A DNA stretch of 64,000 nucleotides from positions 7,367-71,366 of the forward strand of contig JAFWVY010000010.1 in assembly GCA_017523725.1 (NCBI GenBank), written 5' to 3'. Positions 4,398 to 12,973 of this stretch are shown here, piece by piece. The DNA is from Bacteroidales bacterium. Lineage in GTDB: Bacteria > Bacteroidota > Bacteroidia > Bacteroidales > UBA4181. Both the position numbers and the translations under genes were made by a program. Below the pieces are notes generated by a model that was given only the letters and a program-made list of their open reading frames with translations, searched no databases and had not been told where the DNA came from. Numbering within the stretch: position 1 is the first letter of the stretch; the number at the start of each line of letters is the position of its first letter.

Positions 4398-4420
4398 GTC
4401 AAAAGCGAAGAAAAAAGACG

Positions 4421-4452
4421 AAAAAAACGCCCCGAAAATGGAGCGTTTTTTT
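4421..4452 (-). terminator. Rho-independent terminator after the outer-membrane barrel gene (roughly symmetric, A-run/T-run on both sides)
   Basis: Sequence aaaaaaaCGCCCCgaaaatGGAGCGttttttt: a 6-bp stem with one mismatch, followed by T7 on the minus strand. Starts 26 nt after the stop at 4479. Confidence 0.6.
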
Positions 4453-4478
4453 CAACAATAAATCCGGTGAAGAAACGG

Positions 4479-6002
4479 CTACAGGTGCAGCCCGAGCGTG
4501 ACCGCGATGCGGTCGATGTCCGAAGATGTCCGGGCCTCGACGGCGGCGGCGTTGAAGTCGTTGTACAGCCAGATGTCTTCCTTGTTGAAATAGTGCTGAT
4601 AAGCGAAGTCAACGAAACCGATGTCCCCGCGGAAACCGAAACCGGCGGAGAGAATCTGCTGGTTGCGGTTCTTTCCGTTGCTGTAGGACGAATCGATGGG
4701 GTTGCCGATGTTGGCATAGCCGGCCCGCAGATAGGCGACCGGCGAAACGCGCAGTTCACCGCCGATGCGCAGGTTGCCGGTGGAGACGAACTGGTCGCGG
4801 GCTTTCTGCGTCACCTCCTTTGCATAGGTCGGATCGCCTGAGGCTTTCATCTTCGACCGGGAATAGTCAATGAACTCATAGTCGATGCTGATGATACCCG
4901 CGTTCGGGAAGATGTAGGCCCAGCTGGTGATGAACCGTCCCGGTGTGGTCATGTCGAAATCGAAATACGAGTCGGCATCGGTGTAGAAATTCAGCTCTCC
5001 ACTGGTGCTCGGCGAGGTATAGTAATTGGCCTTCATCGTCGTCAGTGCGGAAGAGGTCATGTCATACCAGGTCGGAGAATGGTACGCCAGACCCAGCCGC
5101 ATCTCGGGGATGGGACGGTAGATGGCGCCCAGTTTGAAGTTGACGCCCCAGCCTTCCATGATGAATTCGTCCGTCATGCGGTAATCTTTCAGGTACTGCG
5201 TGGCATTGCGCTGCTCGAAGTGATTGATGTACTCCTTGAAATAAACATCATGGAATCCGAGGGTCCCGCCGAAATACCATACGTCATCTACGTTGAAGCC
5301 CAGCGAGAAGTTGTATTCCTGTATTTCGCCCCTGCGGGAGATGGCCCGGGTCTGGTATTGTCCGTAGACGTCCAGCATGTCGTGGAAGTAGGGCATCGCA
5401 TCGGGGAACCCGGTCTGGGGGTTGGCACCGAAGAAATAGGCCGTGTCGAGGGCATAGACGTCGAAGGCCATCCCCTCGTACCGTCCCAGCGCGCTTGGCA
5501 TCAGCGGGTCCCAGTCGTTGTTGCCGACGGGGTTGTTGGCCGAATAGGCGAATTCATCCAGAATCGAGGACGTCGCCCGGTTGGAGGTGATGCTGATGTC
5601 CTGGTTGAAATCGGCGATGCGGGCATAGGACATTCCCATCGTCATGCTTTTCGTACGGCTCGGCGACAGATTCACAGTGGAGACAAAACCGAAACCGTTG
5701 AACGGGAAGTTCACTTTGGAATCGGTGTCGGTCTCTCCGTTCAGGGTCGCGTCGGTGTGGTTGATTGACAGCATGGGCGTGATGAGAAGTTCATCACCCC
5801 GGTAGGCGCCGATGCCGGCGGGATTCTGTCCCAAGACGGACATGTCGGCTCCCAGGGCACCGAATGCACCGCCCATGGACATGGCCCGTGCGGTACCGGT
5901 CGGATATCTTTGAGAGAGTCTCAGCAGGTCGGAAGAGCCTTGTGCAAGACAAACCGATGTCATGCCGAGCAGAAGGATGGAAGAGAGAACTCTGTTATAC
6001 AT
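4479..6002 (-). CDS. Outer-membrane beta-barrel protein, FadL/OmpP1/PorV-superfamily-like, substrate unknown
   Basis: Signal peptide MYNRVLSSILLLGMTSVCLAQG, then the superfamily N-terminal motif TARAMSMGGAFGALGADMSVLGQNPAGIG. Alternating aromatic/Gly-rich strands run through to the C-terminus. Confidence 0.7.
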   Translation of the reverse strand: MYNRVLSSILLLGMTSVCLAQGSSDLLRLSQRYPTGTARAMSMGGAFGALGADMSVLGQNPAGIGAYRGDELLITPMLSINHTDATLNGETDTDSKVNFPFNGFGFVSTVNLSPSRTKSMTMGMSYARIADFNQDISITSNRATSSILDEFAYSANNPVGNNDWDPLMPSALGRYEGMAFDVYALDTAYFFGANPQTGFPDAMPYFHDMLDVYGQYQTRAISRRGEIQEYNFSLGFNVDDVWYFGGTLGFHDVYFKEYINHFEQRNATQYLKDYRMTDEFIMEGWGVNFKLGAIYRPIPEMRLGLAYHSPTWYDMTSSALTTMKANYYTSPSTSGELNFYTDADSYFDFDMTTPGRFITSWAYIFPNAGIISIDYEFIDYSRSKMKASGDPTYAKEVTQKARDQFVSTGNLRIGGELRVSPVAYLRAGYANIGNPIDSSYSNGKNRNQQILSAGFGFRGDIGFVDFAYQHYFNKEDIWLYNDFNAAAVEARTSSDIDRIAVTLGLHL

Positions 6003-6020: not shown

Positions 6021-7688
6021 TTATCTTCTGGAAGAACTGCCGGAGGACGATGCTCCGCTGCGTGTGGCACCGCCGCCCGAGGAGAATCCGCCGCTTGATC
6101 CGAAGGACGGAGATGTGCTGAAGGACGGCGTAGAACTGTATGACGGGGCGCTGAAGGTAGAGCTCGACCGGGTGGAGGCAGAACTGCCGAAAGAGGATGC
6201 AGCCGAAGAACGCGTCGCGGCGGAAGAAGCGGAAGAAGCGGCAGATGAGCGGGTCGCCGCCGAAGAGGCCGCCGCGGAGGCGGCAGACCGGGTCGCCGAT
6301 CTTGTGGCGGTTGAACTGTTGTTGTTGCTGCTCTGCGTTGCGGTGCTCCTTGCGGCGCGCCGGGTGGCATTGCCGGAGGATTGCTGTTGCGGCTGCTGTA
6401 CGGCCGGCTGTGTATTGCGCTGCTGCACGGCCGGTTGTGTGCTGCTGCTCTGCGGAGCAGTCCTGGACTGCTGCTGTGCGGAGTTGACAGCCTCCCGGCG
6501 CGGGTTGGCGACAGGGGCGGTCCGCTCCGTGGACGGCGCGGTGTAGGTTCCGGCGCTGCCCTGCCGGGCCGGAACAGCCTGGTCGGCATTGCGGCTGATA
6601 TCGGTACGCGCTGCGCTCTGATTGTAGGTCTGGCCGCTTTGCGTACGGTTGTAGGTCTGTGTGGTGCCGGATCCCGCGGCTGCCTGAGCCTCGTTCAAGG
6701 CCTCACGGCGGGTCCGGGCCGTGCTCTGCGTGCCGCTTGCGGAGGCAGGTTGCGGGCTGCGGGCGGCAGGCGCCGCGCTGCCGGCACTGCTGCCTGTTCC
6801 TGCAGTTCCTGCGGTACGACGGGTCGCGGCCTGCTGTACCGGCACTCTGTCACCCGGCAGCGCAGCGTCCGCGACGTCGGCGGCTACGATGCGGCGGGAG
6901 ACGTTGTTCAGCGTATTCTCCCTGCGGGAGGCAGGTCCATAGGTCGTGTGGTCCGTCCGGGGTCTGGGCGGGTCGATGAACGCGATGACCGGTCTGTAGA
7001 ACGGGTCGTGGTAGAATCCTGTGGCATGGTAGAACAGTGGATCCCATCCCCAGCCCAGGTGAATGCTCCAGCGGGAACGGGGATAGAATCCCCATCCGGT
7101 GGAGTAACCGATGGAGAACCTGGGAGAAGCCCAGCTTCTGTAATAGTAGGGATCTCTGAAGAGATAGCCGTCGTACCAGGGATCGTAATACCACGGATCG
7201 TACCAGGGGTCGTAATACCACGGGTCATACCACGGATCGTCGTAATAGTAATAGTTGTTGACGACCGTGGTCTTGCCGGACTTGGCGGCGGAAGGAGTCT
7301 CTTCAACCGTGGCGGAAGGTCCGGAATAGTAGACGGAACCGTCGTCGGCATAGAACAGTTCGCCTCTGGTTTCGGAAGCCGTAGACTGATGGGCGGCCGT
7401 GCCGGAAACGGCACCGGAGGGCACCGTCGTCTGGGCGGATTCCTTCTCAAGGAGATAACGTTCATAGTCGCTCATCCCGTCTTCGTAACGGATGGCGGGT
7501 GCAGCCTCGGCAGGGGCTGCCGCACCGGAAACAGGCGGAGCCTGTACCACGGTCGTCGCGGGAGTGGCGGGCGCGGGCATGTAATACAGATCGTCGTTGA
7601 CATTCGCAGTGCTTCTCGCGTAGTCTGCAGACGTGCAGGCAGGCAGCATGGGCACAGCCAGCAAGAAAAGAATCATTTTTGCTCTCAT
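6021..7688 (-). CDS. Lipoprotein of unknown function: aromatic DPWY-repeat core plus a long Ser/Ala/Thr/Gln-rich low-complexity tail
   Basis: Lipoprotein signal MRAKMILFLLAVPMLPAC. YYYYDDPWYDPWYYDPWYDPWYYDPWYDGY, followed by a W/Y/G-rich segment. About 300 C-terminal residues of low complexity end in ...SSGGFSSGGGATRSGASSSGSSSRR. This is the only frame with a signal peptide and ATG, and the gene is co-oriented with the downstream barrel gene. Confidence 0.75.
   Translation of the reverse strand: MRAKMILFLLAVPMLPACTSADYARSTANVNDDLYYMPAPATPATTVVQAPPVSGAAAPAEAAPAIRYEDGMSDYERYLLEKESAQTTVPSGAVSGTAAHQSTASETRGELFYADDGSVYYSGPSATVEETPSAAKSGKTTVVNNYYYYDDPWYDPWYYDPWYDPWYYDPWYDGYLFRDPYYYRSWASPRFSIGYSTGWGFYPRSRWSIHLGWGWDPLFYHATGFYHDPFYRPVIAFIDPPRPRTDHTTYGPASRRENTLNNVSRRIVAADVADAALPGDRVPVQQAATRRTAGTAGTGSSAGSAAPAARSPQPASASGTQSTARTRREALNEAQAAAGSGTTQTYNRTQSGQTYNQSAARTDISRNADQAVPARQGSAGTYTAPSTERTAPVANPRREAVNSAQQQSRTAPQSSSTQPAVQQRNTQPAVQQPQQQSSGNATRRAARSTATQSSNNNSSTATRSATRSAASAAASSAATRSSAASSASSAATRSSAASSFGSSASTRSSSTFSAPSYSSTPSFSTSPSFGSSGGFSSGGGATRSGASSSGSSSRR
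7173..7239 (-). repeat. 27-bp tandem coding repeat (2 full units plus a partial unit) encoding DPWYDPWYY
   Basis: Units 7173..7199 and 7200..7226 differ at 2 positions (gtaccagggatcgtaataccacggatc versus gtaccaggggtcgtaataccacgggtc). A partial third unit runs to 7239. Confidence 0.8.
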
Positions 7689-7696
7689 GTCTTTGT

Positions 7697-7702
7697 CCTC
7701 CT
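7697..7702 (-). promoter_or_regulatory. Shine-Dalgarno-like AGGAGG 8 nt upstream of the lipoprotein ATG
   Basis: Plus strand cctcct at 7697..7702. The coding strand reads tatagaAGGAGGacaaagacATG. Confidence 0.35.
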
Positions 7703-7724
7703 TCTATAAACGTTGAAAAATATC

Positions 7725-7732
7725 TATTTTTG
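7725..7732 (+). promoter_or_regulatory. Putative -7 box (TATTTTTG) for proS
   Basis: Exact TAnnTTTG match ending 41 nt upstream of the proS ATG, within the AT-rich divergent intergenic region. Confidence 0.45.
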
Positions 7733-7773
7733 CGGTGTAAATGTAGCAAACAAATTTTATACCAAGTTAGATT

Positions 7774-9246
7774 ATGGCTAAAGTATTGACTCCCCGCGCA
7801 GAGAATTATTCGCAATGGTACAACGACCTGGTCGTGAAGGCGGACCTTGCGGAGACTTCGGCGGTGAGGGGATGCATGGTGATAAAACCTTATGGTTATG
7901 CCATCTGGGAGACGATGCATGACGTGCTGGACCGGATGTTCAAGCAGACCGGGCACCAGAACGCCTATTTCCCCCTGTTTATCCCGAAAAGTTTCTTCAG
8001 CCGCGAGGCGCATCATGTGGAGGGTTTCGCCAAGGAATGCGCCGTGGTGACCCATTACCGCCTCAAAAACGACCCGGAGGGGAAAGGCGTGATCGTCGAT
8101 CCCGAGGCCAAACTGGAGGAAGAACTGATTGTGCGTCCGACGTCTGAAACGATAATCTGGAATACTTACCGGAACTGGATACATTCTTACCGCGATCTGC
8201 CTATTCTGGTGAACCAGTGGGCGAACGTGGTGCGCTGGGAGATGCGCACACGGCTTTTCCTGCGCACGGCGGAATTCCTGTGGCAGGAGGGGCATACCGC
8301 GCACGCCACGGCAGAAGAGGCCATGGAGGAAATGAACAGGATGATAGGCGTGTATGCCGATTTTGTCGAGAATTACATGGCCGTGCCGGTCATCAAGGGT
8401 TACAAGACGGACAAGGAACGTTTCGCCGGTGCGGTGGAGACCATGTCCATCGAAGCCATGATGCAGGACGGCAAGGCGCTGCAGGCCGGGACCTCCCATT
8501 TCCTGGGACAGAATTTCGCCAAGGCGTTCGATGTGAAGTTCGCCAACCGGGAAGGGGCGCTGGAATATGTCTGGGCGACTTCCTGGGGCGTGTCTACCCG
8601 GCTCATGGGGGCGCTGATCATGGCTCATTCGGATGACAACGGGCTGGTGCTGCCGCCGCGGCTGGCACCGATCCATGTGGTGATGGTGCCGATATACCAG
8701 CAGGCGGCGCAGATTCCCGGCTTGGTGGCGGCATTGCAGGCGCTCAAGGTCAAGCTGGAAAACCGTGGTCTGCGCGTGAAACTGGACGACCGCGATACGG
8801 TCAAGCCGGGATTCAAGTTCGCAGAGCACGAACTGAAAGGTATTCCGGTACGCGTGGCGCTGGGACCGAGGGACCTGGCGGCCGGCACCGTGGAAATCGC
8901 ACGCCGTGACACCCTGGAGAAACAGGTGGTGGACATGCAGGCGGCAGAGCAGGTCATCGTGGACCTGATGGAGGAGATTCAGCGGAATATCTTCGTCAAG
9001 GCCAAGGCTTTCAGAACGGCACATACGGTGAATGCGGACACTTACGACGAATTCAAGGCGGCGCTGGACGGGGGCAACTTCGTCATGGCGCACTGGGACG
9101 GCACTTCGGAAACCGAGGAACTGATCAAGGACGAGACCAAGGCGACCATCCGTTGTATCCCATGCGATGCGCCGGAAGAACAGGGCCGCTGCATCCGTAC
9201 GGGACGGCCGTCTGCACGACGGGTGCTGTTTGCCCGGGCCTATTAA
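7774..9246 (+). CDS. proS: Proline--tRNA ligase (archaeal/eukaryote-like class II type, as usual in Bacteroidota)
   Basis: [46 protein letters not shown]...; 490 aa ending ...VLFARAY. Confidence 0.97.
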
Positions 9247-9258
9247 GCACAGCCTGTG

Positions 9259-10074
9259 ATGACAAGCGTCGACAGCCCGCTCGTGATGGGCATTCTCAAT
9301 GTGACGCCGGATTCTTTTTTCGACGGCGGGGCGTATGACGGCGAGCGTGCCGTGGCAACCCGGTGTGAGAACATCCTGTCGGAAGGCGGCGCATGGATAG
9401 ATGTCGGCGGTGTTTCGACGCGTCCCGGGGCTTCGGAGGTTCCGGCCGAAGAGGAATGGCGCCGGGTGTCGGCGGCGCTCCGGACGCTGCGGCGTCATTT
9501 TCCGGATGCCCGGGTTTCGGTCGATACGTTCCGTGCTGAGATTGCCAGACGGGCGGTGTCGGAGTTCGGCATTCAGATGGTCAACGATATTTCCGGCGGG
9601 ACGGACGCAGATATGTTCTCCACGGTGGCGGAACTGGGGGTGGCGTATGTGTTGTCGCACCATCCTGCGGCAGAATCAGGCATGGCCGGTCTGCCGGAAC
9701 CGGTCGTGGAACGGGAGAAATTTTTCTTTGCGCGTCTGGTACCGCGGCTTATGGCATGCGGTGTCCGGGATATATGGATCGATCCGGGTATCGGGTTCGG
9801 GAAAACGTTGGAAGAGAACTTCGCGTTGGTCGCCCACTTGGACGAATTGTCGGAAGATGGTCGGCCTCTGTTGGTGGGCGTATCCAGAAAATCCATGATA
9901 TACAGGCTTCTGGATACGGATCCGGACGGGGCTTTGGCCGGTACGCTGGCCGTTGAGACCCTGGCGCTTCTGCACGGTGCCCGGATGCTGCGCGCACACG
10001 ATGTCCGTGCAGCATCCGACTGTGTCCGCATCGTCGGGAAGTTTTTGTCGTGCCGTCAAAAAGAATGTCTATGA
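9259..10074 (+). CDS. folP: Dihydropteroate synthase
   Basis: Pterin-binding motifs LVMGILNVTPDSFFDGG and IDVGGVSTRPG...VSVDT...WIDPGIGFGKT. The track start 9256 is GTG; ATG at 9259 is more likely. Confidence 0.93.
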   Translation: MTSVDSPLVMGILNVTPDSFFDGGAYDGERAVATRCENILSEGGAWIDVGGVSTRPGASEVPAEEEWRRVSAALRTLRRHFPDARVSVDTFRAEIARRAVSEFGIQMVNDISGGTDADMFSTVAELGVAYVLSHHPAAESGMAGLPEPVVEREKFFFARLVPRLMACGVRDIWIDPGIGFGKTLEENFALVAHLDELSEDGRPLLVGVSRKSMIYRLLDTDPDGALAGTLAVETLALLHGARMLRAHDVRAASDCVRIVGKFLSCRQKECL

Positions 10075-10854: not shown

Positions 10855-12846
10855 TTATTCGGGGCGCTCCTGTCCCGTTTCCTGGACAAGATAGTAGTCG
10901 TCCGTATAGCGGACCATCCGCAGGGCGCGGTTGACAAAGCCGTCACCGTCGCCGGTGCGTTCGAAGAATACGTCCGACTGGAGCATCCGTGAGGCTTCCT
11001 GCGGAAGGGCGGATGCGAAGTCTTTGCCGTATTTCCGGAGAAGGGGAACGAAGTACGTGGCGATGTCGTATCCCAGGAAGGCGTAATTGTAACCTTTGCT
11101 GAGCATTTCGAACGGTTCTGTGCGGAACAGGTCGCGGTAGCTGTGCAGGAATTCCTGCGTTTTGTTCTGGTTACGGTCGATGAAGAACGGAGCCGTATAG
11201 CGGAACTGCAGCGTGTGGGAATAATCCAGGTCGATGTTGACATAGTGGATCCACGATTCCGGGCCGCAGAGAAGGATATCGCGTCCCTGCGAGGCTACGT
11301 TGAGCTGCGACATGAGATTGGATGCGAACAGTTCATCGGACGACGGGGTAACGAAAATGTAACGGCGTTCACCCGCGAAATAGCCGGCCGGGAAAATGGC
11401 GCGGCGCTCGGCCGGGACGGCGAGCGTGAGGGTGCCCGGGCATTGCTCCTGTAACTGCTGCAGGAAGGAGAAGTCGGCCGTGGACATGCTTTCGGCCGTG
11501 TTGCGCACGAAAACGATCTGCGCATCCTGCTGTCGTTTCAGGTAGTCCAGCATCAGTGCCTGCGTTGAACGGCTGTCGGGGAAAAACTGGAGCATGTACG
11601 GGTTGTTCCTGAGCAGACTGGTGTTTTCGGTGAGCGGAGATACGAAGCAGGTCTGCGTGTTGCGTGCAAAGGCATTCATCCGGCCGAGCATATCCGAGTA
11701 GAACGGTCCGATGAACAAGTCCATCTGTTGCATTTCGGGACGTCTCAGAATGTCGTCGAGGCGGTTGACATCGCGGCCGGTGTCGAAGGTGTGCAGTTCG
11801 ATTTCGTATCCCTGTTGCCGCAGGTCGTACATGGCGGTGAGGAATCCCTGGTAGAATTCCAGGAAATTGAGCGACCGGTCGTACAGTTGCGGCGTCTGTG
11901 CGGCGAGCTCTTCCGGAGAGGATTCGAGGAACGTGTTCTCTTCGAGGAATAGCGGGATGAGTAGTGCAATGCGGAGGGTTCTCCGGTCGAAAAGACTCCG
12001 GAACGTTGAACGGAAGTCCGTTCCCGCCGTGTTGAACGAGATGTTGTCGAAGGAGGCAATGCCGGTATCGGTGCCGGGTTCCGTCAGGGTGTCCTTCCGG
12101 ACGACGACCGTGTCGGTCTGCCGGAATACGAGCGGCAGGGCGATGGGGTTGGCCTCAGACGGGATGCGGAGGCTCTGTCCTGTCTGGATGCGCAGCGTCC
12201 GGCTGTCGATGTCTGGATTGGCTTCGAGGATGTCATTGACGGAAACGCCGTATTTCCGGCTGATGGCGTAAAGGGTCTCGGACGCTTCGACCCGGTGGAT
12301 GACCGTCCCGCTGCCGGGGGCTGCCAGGTCTTCCGTACCTGCTCCTCCTTTCGGAATGACGATGACCTGACCCGGGTCGATGGGGGCGTATTGCAGTTCT
12401 GGATTAAACTTGTACAGGGTGTCCAGAGAAACGCCGTACTGCCGGGAGATGTCCTCTTTCTGCTGTCCTTCTTTGGCAACGTAGAAAACAAAGCGGTCCG
12501 ACTCCAATCCTTTTCCTTCGTAGGTCTCTTTTTCGCCGGGAGCTGGGATCCGGAGTTCCTCTCCAATCCGGATGCCGGTGAAGGCGTTGGGATTGGCGGC
12601 TACGATGTCCTTCTGCAGGACACCATAGGCGTTGGCGATGGAGAAAAGGGTCTCGCCTTTCTTGACGGTGTGCAGGTAGTAGGTTTGTCCGTCAATGACT
12701 TGCTTCTTTTTCGATACGGTGACCTTTACGGGGGAGTTCTGGGCATAGATGCAGTACGAAGCCATAGGTTGGAGTATCATGACTGTAAAGATCAGTGCGA
12801 TACAGACCAACCTGAGGCGTCCGCTGTGGAGTTCGGTACGGTTCAT
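10855..12846 (-). CDS. Signal-anchored protein with three LysM peptidoglycan-binding repeats and a type-1 periplasmic-binding-protein-like domain
   Basis: Three LysM units (VKKGETLFSIANAYGV...LRIP, YVAKEGQQKEDISRQYGV...VIVIP, HRVEASETLYAISRKYGV...LRIP), then an alpha/beta region about 400 aa long. Start trimmed to ATG 12846 (MNRTELHSGRLRLVCIALIF...). Confidence 0.8.
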   Translation of the reverse strand: MNRTELHSGRLRLVCIALIFTVMILQPMASYCIYAQNSPVKVTVSKKKQVIDGQTYYLHTVKKGETLFSIANAYGVLQKDIVAANPNAFTGIRIGEELRIPAPGEKETYEGKGLESDRFVFYVAKEGQQKEDISRQYGVSLDTLYKFNPELQYAPIDPGQVIVIPKGGAGTEDLAAPGSGTVIHRVEASETLYAISRKYGVSVNDILEANPDIDSRTLRIQTGQSLRIPSEANPIALPLVFRQTDTVVVRKDTLTEPGTDTGIASFDNISFNTAGTDFRSTFRSLFDRRTLRIALLIPLFLEENTFLESSPEELAAQTPQLYDRSLNFLEFYQGFLTAMYDLRQQGYEIELHTFDTGRDVNRLDDILRRPEMQQMDLFIGPFYSDMLGRMNAFARNTQTCFVSPLTENTSLLRNNPYMLQFFPDSRSTQALMLDYLKRQQDAQIVFVRNTAESMSTADFSFLQQLQEQCPGTLTLAVPAERRAIFPAGYFAGERRYIFVTPSSDELFASNLMSQLNVASQGRDILLCGPESWIHYVNIDLDYSHTLQFRYTAPFFIDRNQNKTQEFLHSYRDLFRTEPFEMLSKGYNYAFLGYDIATYFVPLLRKYGKDFASALPQEASRMLQSDVFFERTGDGDGFVNRALRMVRYTDDYYLVQETGQERPE

Positions 12847-12973
12847 GGTGTTATGGTTTCGCGAACGGTTGCCCGGTGCTGCACCGTGCAGTTTCCGGCC
12901 GGCCGTCATCCCGCCGGTATTCGGACCGGCGGGACTTCTGCTTTGCAAATATTGTTCCGCTTTTCATCGGAGA

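What the first reader, a model, noticed from the sequence alone, without database searches (positions are those of the whole stretch)
6021..7688. Lipoprotein with a DPWY/aromatic repeat core and a ~300-aa Ser/Ala/Thr/Gln low-complexity tail
The ORF has a clean lipoprotein signal (LPAC). It then carries NNYYYYDDPWYDPWYYDPWYDPWYYDPWYDGYLFRDPYYYRSW, followed by a W/G/Y/F-rich block (GYSTGWGFYPRSRWSIHLGWGWDPLFYHATGFYHDPFY). The rest is almost pure S/A/T/Q/R low complexity with internal repeats (TQPAVQQRNTQPAVQQ; SAATRSSAASS twice), ending in SSGGFSSGGGATRSGASSSGSSSRR. The DNA shows a 27-bp tandem repeat (7173..7239) and GC-rich triplet repeats at 6150..6450, which are potential slippage hot spots. 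I do not recognise a characterised family. The aromatic-Pro-Asp repeats plus a disordered tail suggest a surface or periplasmic scaffold or polymer-binding protein.
Basis: seen in the sequence. Interest (0 to 1): 0.6.

Follow-up and report, generated by a model that had tools for sequence, protein, structure and literature searches.

The report
Disordered lipoprotein partner of FadL-type barrel
This is a real gene for an almost entirely unstructured outer-membrane lipoprotein from an unnamed family found across the Bacteroidota, always encoded just upstream of one FadL-type barrel, the same barrel family that a Bacteroides fragilis toxin uses as its receptor; its function is unknown.

Summary
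Window 6021-7688 (-) is an intact 555-aa ORF with a lipoprotein signal, five DPWY units (27-bp repeat, 7171-7240), a W/G/Y/F block and a ~320-aa S/A/T/Q/G/R tail ending in RR.

It is a real gene. Synonymous changes outnumber non-synonymous ones between strains, and all indels are in frame.

It matches no Pfam, NCBIfam or PDB entry, but it is not an orphan. The downstream FadL-type barrel has relatives in at least 577 Bacteroidota species. In all 74 loci with enough upstream DNA, the gene just before the barrel has the same three-part build:
- an acidic N-terminal linker with a DDxYY motif;
- an aromatic core of about 135 aa;
- a polycationic tail whose last residue is R or K in 67 of 71 members.

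proS lies divergently upstream in 62 of 80 loci. F. johnsoniae has the same order (Fjoh_4939-4941), and both proteins are detected there by MS. Published peptides of the B. fragilis BSAP-1 receptor B1R/OmpS match this barrel family (E 2.6e-52).

AlphaFold2 predicts disorder nearly throughout. There is no lipoprotein export signal, so the protein probably faces the periplasm.

Best reading (inferred, confidence about 0.4): a disordered accessory subunit of the barrel whose cationic tail contacts anionic envelope polymers.

The parts
6021..7688 (-). Gene for the 555-aa disordered lipoprotein (the finding), stop codon included
   Evidence: ORF list. A 97%-identical allele sits in the same synteny. 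Synonymous changes exceed non-synonymous ones. The family profile hits homologues.
7635..7688 (-). Signal peptide and lipobox (MRAKMILFLLAVPMLPAC, aa 1-18)
   Evidence: Read from the sequence. C18 is nearly invariant in the 66-member alignment. A lipobox is found in 60 of 71 family members.
7575..7595 (-). DDLYYMP motif (aa 32-38), the most conserved motif of the family
   Evidence: D32, D33 and Y35 are invariant and P38 nearly so. A DDxY[YF]-type motif is present in 67 of 72 members. In members with an SPase I signal it lies at the mature N-terminus.
7428..7472 (-). Short amphipathic helix SDYERYLLEKESAQ (aa 73-87)
   Evidence: The only high-confidence AlphaFold2 element (helix 74-87, pLDDT about 91). 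E76 and Y78 are invariant among the closer relatives.
7323..7361 (-). Small beta-hairpin ELFYADDGSVYYS (aa 110-122)
   Evidence: AlphaFold2 strands 110-113 and 119-122, pLDDT about 80.
6984..7259 (-). Aromatic core (aa 144-235; Y 22, P 12, D 11, W 11 %)
   Evidence: Composition. The family core has a median of 135 aa and 36% Y/W/F. AlphaFold2 pLDDT is about 35.
7171..7240 (-). 27-bp tandem repeat encoding the five DPWY units
   Evidence: Tandem Repeats Finder: period 27, 2.6 copies, score 112. The unit number is constant in three complete alleles.
7041..7121 (-). Two strand-like stretches with alternating aromatic and small residues (RFSIGYSTGWGF ... RWSIHLGWGWD, aa 190-216)
   Evidence: Read from the sequence. 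The longest alternating run beats composition shuffles at p<=0.05 in 32% of family members, and at p=0.023 in the window protein.
6024..6983 (-). Polycationic low-complexity tail (aa 236-555, net charge +21) ending in RR
   Evidence: Composition and charge. AlphaFold2 pLDDT is about 40. In-frame length variation between strains. The family C-terminus is R or K in 67 of 71 members, binomial P 6e-52.
4479..6002 (-). Co-transcribed FadL-family outer-membrane barrel (507 aa), 18 nt downstream and in the same frame
   Evidence: Pfam Toluene_X 34.6 bits against a cut-off of 29.7. A deep profile hits TbuX 3bry at E 2.8e-7. The top fold-search hits are all FadL-family, from a low-confidence model. Peptides of B. 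fragilis B1R-S match the family.
4419..4454 (-). Terminator-like hairpin with a T-run after the barrel gene, closing a two-gene operon
   Evidence: Terminator scan: 15-pair stem followed by TCTTTTTTCT.
7689..7773 (.). 85-bp divergent intergenic region shared with proS
   Evidence: Sequence. No sigma-70-type promoter match lies in this region, as expected for Bacteroidota.
7774..9246 (+). proS, the conserved divergent neighbour
   Evidence: ORF and Pfam domains of the orthologue in L001. proS lies divergently upstream of the partner gene in 62 of 80 loci.

Best explanation
The ORF encodes a genuine outer-membrane lipoprotein that is intrinsically disordered over almost its whole length. It is the window organism's member of an unnamed family found across the Bacteroidota. 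That family is always encoded directly upstream of, and in an operon with, one particular subfamily of FadL-type barrels. This subfamily contains the B. fragilis BSAP-1 receptor B1R/OmpS and, by synteny, F. johnsoniae Fjoh_4941, whose partner is Fjoh_4940.

Proposed working:
1. The precursor is exported by Sec, lipidated at Cys18 and placed in the periplasmic leaflet of the outer membrane, because it has no lipoprotein export signal.
2. The short conserved elements of the acidic N-terminal part (DDxYYxP, the SDYERY helix, a small hairpin) and the Tyr/Trp/Pro/Gly-rich core, with its strand-like W-G-x-S-x-G-W-G stretches, bind the cognate barrel and fold only on binding.
3. The ~320-aa Ser/Ala/Thr/Gln/Gly/Arg tail (net +21, almost no hydrophobic or acidic residues, ending in RR) stays extended in the periplasm. 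There it contacts anionic envelope components such as peptidoglycan or lipid head groups.

On this reading the protein is an accessory or tether subunit of the barrel rather than an enzyme or a transporter.

Shown here: the gene is real; the family exists; its strict linkage to the barrel and to proS; the three-part charge and composition pattern; the conserved basic C-terminus; the predicted disorder; the lack of an export signal.

Inferred: the physical complex, which segments make contact, and what the tail binds.
For: The gene is real.
- Synonymous changes exceed non-synonymous ones, and only in-frame indels occur across 3 complete and 5 partial alleles.

The family exists.
- phmmer against 1.84 billion representatives finds 12 relatives; a profile search finds 26. 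All are 'hypothetical'.

Linkage to the barrel.
- A scan with the barrel profile found at least 577 species.
- In 58 of 80 kept loci the upstream ORF hits the family HMM.
- By composition, 74 of 80 loci have the partner. The other 6 have 820 nt or less of upstream DNA.
- The gap is 18 nt in the window, and a terminator follows the barrel.

Synteny with proS.
- 62 of 80 loci.
- Fjoh_4939 (Pro-tRNA ligase), Fjoh_4940 (SPII, periplasm-facing, function unknown) and Fjoh_4941 (FadL) lie in the same order. Both proteins are seen by MS and both rise on TamL depletion. The authors suggest a functional link (PMC12045153).

Architecture (family medians).
- N-terminal part net -8; core 135 aa with 36% Y/W/F; tail 265 aa, net +23.
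- The C-terminal residue is R or K in 67 of 71 members, P 6e-52.

Disorder.
- AlphaFold2 mean pLDDT is 45. Only the helix at 74-87 and the hairpin at 110-122 are confident.

No export signal.
- 57 of 60 relatives have no acidic residue at positions +2 to +7 after the Cys. The criterion is taken from PMC12578637.

Precedent.
- In the Bacteroidota BAM complex, the FadL-type barrel BamG holds the N-terminus of the lipoprotein BamH in its lateral opening. BamG2 and BamH2 are an operon (PMC12578637, PMC12611786).
Against: - No direct evidence of a complex.
- B1R-S expressed alone in B. uniformis or B. thetaiotaomicron is functional as a toxin receptor. It was purified and imaged as a 1:1 complex with BSAP-1 with no extra subunit reported (PMC4999547, PMC12853789). 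So the barrel does not need its cognate partner to fold or reach the surface, although a host orthologue might substitute.
- About 7 of 71 members have an SPase I signal instead of a lipobox, so the lipid anchor is dispensable.
- Nothing shows that the tail binds peptidoglycan or lipids.
- Sequence conservation outside DDxYY is low (mean column identity 19%).
Confidence: 0.4

Rival explanations
1. Exported or threaded cargo. The barrel is a dedicated outer-membrane device that lets the disordered chain, or its cationic tail, reach the cell surface. This would resemble RcsF threaded through OmpA/C/F, Slam-dependent surface lipoproteins, or CsgG/FapF exporting unfolded subunits. On the surface the tail would coat or bind anionic LPS or capsule, or the barrel's own extracellular loops.
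For: - Strict gene pairing with a barrel.
- The chain is unfolded and so could in principle be threaded.
- The barrel family is surface-exposed in B. fragilis. An Arg-rich, acid-free, disordered 38-aa toxin tail ending in RRP binds its extracellular loops (PMC12853789 and bioRxiv 10.64898/2026.08.05.742979). That tail resembles the partner tail, which ends in RR.
- Between B. fragilis strain types, the 3' part of the upstream exported-protein gene is replaced together with the barrel gene (PMC4999547).
Against: - There is no lipoprotein export signal.
- FadL-type lumens are plugged by the N-terminal hatch, and the hatch motif is the best-conserved part of this barrel.
- The negative patch that binds the toxin is absent from the resistant but functional orthologue OMP-R, so it is not a conserved feature of the family.
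- Fjoh_4940 is classed as periplasm-facing.
Confidence: 0.2
2. Accessory of hydrophobic-substrate uptake. The barrel is a true FadL-type importer of fatty acids or other hydrophobic molecules. The aromatic-rich disordered core of the lipoprotein would act as a periplasmic acceptor or sponge that takes over the substrate.
For: - The barrel passes the Pfam Toluene_X threshold. It matches TbuX by profile and FadL/TodX/CymD by fold.
- Published papers predict hydrophobic transport for B1R and Fjoh_4941.
- The core is 33-36% aromatic.
Against: - No substrate is known for this subfamily.
- In FadL, substrates leave sideways into the membrane rather than into the periplasm (as described in PMC12611786).
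- The idea does not explain the long polycationic tail or the conserved basic C-terminus.
Confidence: 0.15
3. A self-associating material. The Tyr/Trp-rich core and Arg-rich tail would act as stickers and spacers, as in FUS-like proteins. They would form a gel or condensate in the periplasm near the barrel, or an amyloid-like or elastomeric assembly.
For: - The composition fits: 36% aromatic core, a tail with 14% R/K and 42% S/T/G, and only 4.5% L/I/V/M/F/W/C in the last 200 aa.
- Disorder is predicted throughout.
- Composition is conserved much better than sequence.
Against: - Purely compositional reasoning.
- Proline every 4-5 residues in the DPWY units argues against amyloid.
- No precedent in the periplasm.
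- The idea does not explain the strict pairing with one barrel.
Confidence: 0.1
4. Not a functional gene: a chance ORF in GC-rich DNA, or a decaying pseudogene whose low-complexity region drifts freely.
For: - GC-rich DNA here yields long spurious ORFs on other frames, for example + strand 6381-7709, 442 aa.
- The tail sequence is poorly conserved.
Against: - The ORF is intact in every allele, and indels are always multiples of three.
- Synonymous changes exceed non-synonymous ones, also in the tail.
- The same architecture recurs in 74 loci across the phylum.
- The F. johnsoniae counterpart is detected by mass spectrometry.
Confidence: 0.01

Closest known systems
Fjoh_4940 / Fjoh_4941 of Flavobacterium johnsoniae (PMC12045153)
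   Same: The gene order is the same: Pro-tRNA ligase, then an SPII lipoprotein of unknown function, then a FadL/OMPP1 barrel. The lipoprotein is classed as periplasm-facing. Both proteins are detected and co-regulated on TamL depletion.
   Different: Orthology rests on synteny only; the Fjoh_4940 sequence could not be read here. Several Flavobacteriales loci with the same order were checked (L021, L035, L043, L052). No function is assigned in the paper.
B. fragilis BSAP-1 receptor B1R-S/OmpS (BF9343_1563) and its upstream exported protein (BF638R_1644 / HMPREF1080_01555)
   Same: Published B1R-S peptides match the barrel-family profile (E 2.6e-52). They align at 31% identity with the Bacteroidaceae-type barrel of L007 and at 25% with the window barrel (E 1e-18). 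The gene upstream of B1R encodes an exported protein whose 3' part varies between strains. That fits the partner family members with an SPase I signal, P0031 and P0032.
   Different: B1R is about 50 aa longer, with longer extracellular loops. The upstream B. fragilis protein was not seen as sequence here, so calling it a partner orthologue is an inference. All published work concerns the barrel as a toxin receptor and colonisation factor, not the partner.
BamG-BamH (and the BamG2-BamH2 operon) of the Bacteroidota BAM complex
   Same: A FadL-type 14-strand barrel is paired with a lipoprotein whose N-terminal segment is held at the barrel's lateral opening. BamG2 and BamH2 are adjacent genes (PMC12578637, PMC12611786). 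Fold search places BamG among the best matches of the window barrel model.
   Different: No sequence match to any solved BamG or BamH chain. BamH is a folded, surface-exposed lipoprotein with an export signal, whereas this partner is disordered and lacks that signal.
PorV/PorQ of the type IX secretion system
   Same: FadL-like barrels that bind a partner polypeptide rather than transporting lipids. There is a weak NCBIfam PorV_fam hit (29 bits).
   Different: The hit is far below the cut-off of 90 bits. PorV ranks only 47th in the fold search. The partner has no T9SS C-terminal domain.
RcsF-OmpA/C/F and Braun's lipoprotein Lpp (from general knowledge, not tested here)
   Same: These are outer-membrane lipoproteins that work through an unstructured, basic segment associated with a barrel (RcsF), or through a basic C-terminus that contacts peptidoglycan (Lpp ends in ...YRK).
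   Different: There is no homology. The partner ends in Arg in 56 of 71 members and in Lys in only 11, so Lpp-type covalent linkage through a terminal Lys cannot be general. It has no coiled coil and no folded signalling domain.
Tyr/Gly/Asn-rich extracellular loop 3 of Bacteroidota BamA
   Same: This is another conserved, flexible, tyrosine- and glycine-rich outer-membrane segment of unknown function in the same phylum (PMC12578637).
   Different: It is a 38-residue loop of a folded barrel on the outer face, not a separate 500-aa protein. The resemblance is in composition only.

Membership tests
Bacterial lipoprotein (signal peptidase II substrate) | N-terminal signal peptide ending in a lipobox with an invariant Cys | tested here: met
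   The sequence MRAKMILFLLAVPMLPAC has a basic n-region, a hydrophobic core and L-P-A-C (Pro at -2 is unusual). The Cys column is at least 90% conserved in 66 relatives. A lipobox pattern is found in 60 of 71 relatives.
Bacterial lipoprotein (signal peptidase II substrate) | Actual acylation and cleavage | not testable with these tools
   This needs globomycin sensitivity, palmitate labelling or mass spectrometry.
Surface-exposed Bacteroidota lipoprotein | Lipoprotein export signal: two or more acidic residues just after the lipid Cys (criterion as used in PMC12578637) | tested here: not met
   The window protein reads C-TSADYA, with one Asp. In relatives, 57 of 60 have no acidic residue at positions +2 to +7.
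Unnamed barrel-partner family (Fjoh_4940-like), defined in this report | Encoded immediately upstream of, and on the same strand as, the B1R/Fjoh_4941-type FadL barrel | tested here: met
   The gap is 18 nt in the window. The partner is present in 74 of 74 loci with enough upstream DNA.
Unnamed barrel-partner family (Fjoh_4940-like), defined in this report | DDxY[YF] motif near the mature N-terminus, an aromatic core, and a basic S/T/G/R tail ending in R or K | tested here: met
   The window protein has DDLYYMP at aa 32-38, a core at aa 144-235, and a tail of net charge +21 ending in RR. In the family the motif is in 67 of 72 members and a basic C-terminus in 67 of 71. The window protein lacks the SRIxRFHSPY motif seen in many relatives.
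FadL/TodX/TbuX family (Pfam PF03349), for the neighbouring barrel | Profile score above the curated threshold, and an N-terminal hatch with the NPA motif | tested here: met
   Toluene_X scores 34.6 bits against a cut-off of 29.7. The hatch motif GTAR..MGGA.GALG.D.S....NPAGIG is invariant or nearly so. The profile hits TbuX at E 2.8e-7.
FadL/TodX/TbuX family (Pfam PF03349), for the neighbouring barrel | 14-stranded barrel with a lateral opening | tested here: inconclusive
   The AlphaFold2 model from 8 sequences is all-beta but of low confidence (pLDDT 45.5, pTM 0.48). Even so, its 23 best PDB matches are all FadL-family barrels, with target-normalised TM-scores of 0.45-0.57.
BamG/BamH pair of Bacteroidota BAM | Sequence relatedness to BamG and BamH; BamH is a folded surface lipoprotein | tested here: not met
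   No solved BamG or BamH chain is matched at E<=10 by the barrel, the barrel profiles or the partner profile. The partner is predicted disordered and lacks the export signal.
PorV/PorQ family and T9SS cargo | NF033709 score above the cut-off for the barrel; a T9SS C-terminal sorting domain on the partner | tested here: not met
   PorV_fam scores 29 bits against a cut-off of 90. The partner and 66 relatives have no Pfam or NCBIfam domain.
Braun-type lipoprotein covalently bound to peptidoglycan | C-terminal Lys as the attachment residue, and a trimeric coiled coil | tested here: not met
   The window protein ends in Arg-Arg. In the family the last residue is R in 56 and K in 11 of 71. No helix is predicted beyond aa 74-87.
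Curli/Fap-type functional amyloid subunit | Imperfect strand-turn-strand repeats that model as a beta-solenoid, plus a dedicated export channel | tested here: inconclusive
   AlphaFold2 predicts no beta-solenoid. The DPWY units carry a Pro every 4-5 residues. No Pfam curlin or Fap hit. Aggregation was not tested.
Bacteroidota O-glycoprotein | D-(S/T)-(A/I/L/V/M/T) glycosylation motif (rule from general knowledge) | tested here: not met
   There are no such motifs in the window protein, and the family median is zero, despite 37% Ser+Thr in the tail.

The most novel reading that the evidence does not exclude
The disordered chain is not confined to the periplasm. Its polycationic tail ending in RR would be passed through or alongside its FadL-type barrel and lie on the barrel's extracellular loops or the anionic cell surface. 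On this reading, the Arg-rich, acid-free, disordered C-terminal tail of the B. fragilis toxin BSAP-1 (ending in RRP) evolved as a mimic of this endogenous ligand. That would make the pair a new kind of barrel-dependent display of an unfolded protein. It would also explain why the 3' end of the partner gene is swapped together with the receptor gene in toxin-producing strains.
Probability: 0.1. Interest if true: 0.85.

Novelty: new variant of a known kind. Interest (0 to 1): 0.62.

Why it matters
The Bacteroidota build their outer membrane largely from barrel-lipoprotein complexes, and several such pairs have only recently been understood (SusCD, BamGH).

This pair is as widely conserved as those: at least 577 species, usually next to proS. 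Its barrel is already known to matter. It is needed for competitive gut colonisation by B. fragilis and is the receptor that decides which strains the toxin BSAP-1 kills.

The gene in front of the barrel has never been studied and has no family model. Assemblies often truncate it because contigs break in its repeats.

Recognising it as a conserved, almost fully disordered partner gives a concrete target for experiments: deletion, co-purification and localisation in F. johnsoniae or B. fragilis. Those experiments could explain what this barrel does. They could also show how a long unfolded, protease-exposed protein is kept and used in the periplasm.

Tried and rejected
Searches that led nowhere:
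- Homology search with the full-length protein was swamped by low-complexity candidates and found only the near-identical allele. The N-terminal 290 aa found one relative. The exhaustive phmmer search was needed.
- The search for related loci with the partner alignment failed because no stretch was conserved enough. The barrel alignment was used instead.
- Pfam, NCBIfam and PDB searches gave nothing consistent for the protein itself, for five typical relatives, or for all 66 aligned relatives. Rfam found nothing in the window.
- The exact-DNA search of metagenome contigs returned only the contig already known. More alleles came from the barrel's cluster.
- A full-text search for DPWY-type peptide strings found nothing. 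A search of the BAM paper's supplements for other FadL paralogues found nothing. The BSAP-1 tail sequence is only in a figure image.

Structure prediction:
- AlphaFold2 on the partner gave no fold (pLDDT 45), so no fold search was run on it.
Its fold search is used only as weak support.

Ideas considered and rejected:
- BamH, BamG or PorV identity: no sequence match.
- Lpp-like covalent anchoring: the terminal residue is mostly Arg.
- O-glycoprotein: no motif.
- T9SS cargo: no C-terminal domain.
- Phase-variable on/off switch: all repeats and indels are multiples of three.
- The antisense ORF at 6381-7709: the pattern of substitutions fits the minus frame.
Full report
**What is there.**
Window 6021-7688 on the minus strand is an uninterrupted 555-aa ORF. 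Tandem Repeats Finder confirms a 27-bp repeat at 7171-7240 (2.6 copies, score 112), which encodes the five DPWY units. It also finds shorter in-frame repeats in the tail: 9 bp at 6220-6245 and 27 bp at 6387-6453. These are not true triplet repeats.

By composition the protein has four parts:
- a signal peptide with lipobox, aa 1-18;
- an acidic Ala/Thr/Ser/Pro-rich linker, net charge -10;
- an aromatic core, aa 144-235 (Y 22, P 12, D 11, W 11 %);
- a tail of about 320 aa (S 25, A 20, T 12, R 9, Q 9, G 8 %; net +21) that ends in Arg-Arg.

**Is it a gene?**
Yes. A 97%-identical allele lies in identical synteny in a public Bacteroidales MAG. Between the two alleles, 17 codons differ synonymously and 8 non-synonymously. 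Three of the 8 are alignment effects at an indel, and most of the synonymous changes lie in the tail.

Following the barrel protein's cluster gave a third complete allele (549 aa) and five partial ones. All differences in length are in-frame indels inside tail repeats: TAG, one TQPAVQ unit, TG, AASA/SAAS. The number of DPWY units is constant and the C-terminal SRR is kept.

The long ORF on the opposite strand (6381-7709) is a GC-content artefact. The window organism is an uncultured Bacteroidales bacterium.

**Surroundings.**
Eighteen nucleotides downstream, in the same frame, starts a 507-aa protein (4479-6002). It passes the Pfam FadL/TodX threshold (34.6 against 29.7 bits) and is followed by a strong terminator-like hairpin (4454-4419). 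The two genes therefore look like a two-gene operon. Upstream, 85 bp away and divergent, is proS. Downstream of the terminator lie purH and mreBCD.

**The family.**
The protein itself, five typical relatives and all 66 aligned relatives hit nothing consistent in Pfam, NCBIfam or the PDB.

Word-indexed searches were swamped by low complexity. An exhaustive phmmer search of 1.84 billion representatives found 12 relatives, and a profile of the N-terminal halves found 26. All are unnamed, and many are 'partial' because contigs end inside the tail.

The relatives share these features:
- a lipobox;
- a (Y)DD[LVI]Y[YF]xP motif;
- often [ML]SDYE[KR]YR, VxNNYY, SRIxRFHSPY (absent in the window protein) and YYDPWYYDxWY;
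- a strand-like RFSxSxGFGWGY stretch;
- a Tyr/Gly/Trp-rich run;
- an S/T/G/R tail.

**Link to the barrel.**
I scanned one genome per species with a profile of the barrel. Eighty loci were kept.
- In 58 of them the ORF just upstream on the same strand hits the partner HMM.
- With a composition criterion, 74 of 80 have the partner. The six exceptions all have 820 nt or less of upstream DNA, and three of those still show the end of an S/R-rich tail.
- The pairing also holds in the more distant Bacteroidaceae-type loci L006 and L007. There the partner has an SPase I signal (AQ|DDMYF...) and the divergent neighbour is prmA.
- proS is the divergent neighbour in 62 of 80 loci.

**Family statistics**.
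- Length 359-673 aa, median 512.
- Lipobox in 60 of 71 members; about seven have SPase I signals.
- No acidic residue at positions +2 to +7 after the Cys in 57 of 60.
- N-terminal part: median net charge -8.
- Core: median 135 aa, 36% Y/W/F.
- Tail: median 265 aa, net +23, 42% S/T/G, 14% R/K, 4% D/E. Only 4.5% L/I/V/M/F/W/C in the last 200 residues.
- Last residue is R in 56 and K in 11 of 71, giving a binomial P of 6e-52 against the tail's own R/K content. The C-terminal consensus is S-S/G-S-G/S-G-G/R-R-R/K.
- In 32% of cores, the longest run of alternating aromatic and small residues exceeds composition shuffles at p<=0.05. This suggests one or two amphipathic strand-like segments. In the window protein they are RFSIGYSTGWGF and RWSIHLGWGWD.
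- The Bacteroidota O-glycosylation motif is absent.

**Structure.**
AlphaFold2 with a 29-sequence alignment gives a mean pLDDT of 45. Only a short helix (aa 74-87, SDYERYLLEKE, about 91) and a small hairpin (aa 110-122, about 80) are confident. The aromatic core scores about 35 and the tail about 40.

The protein is therefore best described as intrinsically disordered, with a few short elements of the kind that fold on binding. I ran no fold search on this model because it would be meaningless.

**What the barrel is.**
- A 32-sequence profile matches only TbuX in the PDB (E 2.8e-7). It matches no BamG or PorV chain.
- The NCBIfam PorV family scores 29 bits against a cut-off of 90.
- A low-confidence AlphaFold2 model (pLDDT 45.5, pTM 0.48) still finds only FadL-family barrels among its 23 best PDB matches. 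These include FadL, TodX, CymD and the three BamG structures. PorV ranks 47th.

So the barrel is a separate subfamily within the FadL fold.

**Literature links.**
1. In F. johnsoniae, Fjoh_4939 is Pro-tRNA ligase, Fjoh_4940 is an SPII 'periplasm-facing lipoprotein, function unknown', and Fjoh_4941 is a FadL/OMPP1 barrel. Both proteins are detected by mass spectrometry and both increase when TamL is depleted. The authors note a possible functional link (PMC12045153). This is the same gene order as in the window and in the Flavobacteriales loci examined here. I infer orthology from synteny, because I could not read the Fjoh_4940 sequence.
2. The B. fragilis BSAP-1 receptor B1R-S/OmpS (BF9343_1563, 556 aa) is described as a FadL-family barrel (PMC12853789). 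Its published tryptic peptides match the barrel-family profile:
   - E 2.6e-52 when ordered along the barrel, and E 5e-36 to 7e-27 in random order;
   - 31% identity with the L007 barrel (E 1.5e-48);
   - 25% identity with the window barrel (E 1e-18).

   Hence the window barrel belongs to the B1R family. Deleting that barrel causes a gut-colonisation defect but no growth defect in rich medium (PMC4999547). The gene upstream of it encodes an exported protein whose 3' part differs between strain types. That is what one expects of the partner, but this identification is again inferred.
3. The recently solved Bacteroidota BAM complexes contain a FadL-type barrel (BamG) that grips the N-terminus of a lipoprotein (BamH), and BamG2H2 form an operon (PMC12578637, PMC12611786). 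This is the nearest described precedent for a FadL barrel working with a cognate lipoprotein, but there is no sequence relationship.

**How it most likely works.**
I commit to the following, at about 0.4 confidence. The protein is exported and lipidated, and it stays on the periplasmic face of the outer membrane (no export signal; the F. johnsoniae classification agrees). Its short conserved N-terminal elements and aromatic core bind the cognate barrel. The hydrophobic-poor, acid-poor, Arg-rich tail remains extended in the periplasm and contacts anionic envelope material. Its composition and basic end would also make it a poor substrate for periplasmic proteases that recognise hydrophobic stretches and apolar C-termini; that last point comes from general knowledge.

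Shown: gene, family, linkage, architecture, predicted disorder, absence of the export signal.
Inferred: the complex, the contact sites and the ligand of the tail.

Against an obligate complex: B1R-S works as a receptor when expressed alone in other Bacteroides species and was purified without a reported extra subunit. Also, some family members are not lipoproteins.

**Rivals.**
- Export or threading of the chain to the surface (0.2). It is attractive because BSAP-1 binds the barrel's loops through a disordered, Arg-rich, acid-free tail ending in RRP. It is weakened because the acidic patch is missing in the functional resistant orthologue and because the export signal is absent.
- An acceptor for hydrophobic substrates of a true FadL transporter (0.15).
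- A self-associating sticker-and-spacer material (0.1).
- A non-gene (0.01, effectively excluded).

**Novelty and verdict.**
The barrel is a known kind, and its Bacteroides member has published biology. The partner has no family model, no structure and no study. It appears in the literature only as 'function unknown' or 'exported protein'.

I rate it a new variant of a known kind: a Bacteroidota barrel-lipoprotein pair whose lipoprotein is an almost fully disordered protein of extreme composition. Interest is 0.62. The phylum-wide conservation, the fixed position next to proS and the tie to a colonisation factor and toxin receptor make it a worthwhile and directly testable target, but its function is still unknown.

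Noticed in passing
window 7689-9246, and loci L009-L088: proS lies divergently upstream of the partner gene in 62 of 80 Bacteroidota loci, and in F. johnsoniae (Fjoh_4939-4941). In the Bacteroidaceae-type loci L006 and L007 the divergent neighbour is prmA instead. Why a tRNA ligase gene keeps this position across a phylum is unexplained.
   Followed up: partly
L091-L095 (contig starts) and proteins P0004, P0013, P0017, P0022: Short-read assemblies often break inside the partner's low-complexity tail. As a result many database entries of this family are truncated and labelled 'partial', which hides the family from routine annotation.
   Followed up: partly
L003 4279-9189: This contig carries frameshifts that split proS, the partner gene and the barrel gene into several called ORFs. 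Since three adjacent genes are affected, these are most likely assembly errors rather than pseudogenes.
   Followed up: no
L018, L051, L074 (partner proteins, between the N-linker and the aromatic core): Some partners (Sanguibacteroides, Odoribacter, Marinifilum) carry an extra conserved segment of about 70 aa, GYWIGGF.G...D..E..R....YP.GF......DSDWNVY....WW.P. It looks foldable and is absent from the window protein.
   Followed up: no
window 6381-7709 (+) and 7462-9663 (-): Long ORFs of 442 and 733 aa lie antisense to the partner gene and to proS. They are by-products of the high GC content. The substitution pattern and the homologues support the annotated frames.
   Followed up: partly
window 10855-12948 (-): A 697-aa ORF has a hydrophobic N-terminal segment and repeated LysM-like stretches (TYYLHTVKKGETLFSIANAYGV..., FVFYVAKEGQQKEDISRQYGV..., VIHRVEASETLYAISRKYGV...), followed by a large C-terminal domain. 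I ran no domain search on it.
   Followed up: no
literature: PMC12578637: Bacteroidota BamA has a conserved, flexible Tyr/Gly/Asn-rich extracellular loop (EL3) of unknown function. Its composition resembles the partner's aromatic core, which hints at a phylum-specific use of Tyr/Gly-rich flexible segments at the outer membrane.
   Followed up: no
literature: bioRxiv 10.64898/2026.08.05.742979 and PMC4999547: In B. fragilis the block exchanged between BSAP-1 producer and sensitive strains includes the toxin gene, the barrel gene and the 3' part of the upstream exported-protein gene. The acidic patch bound by the toxin is present only in the sensitive barrel allele.
   Followed up: partly
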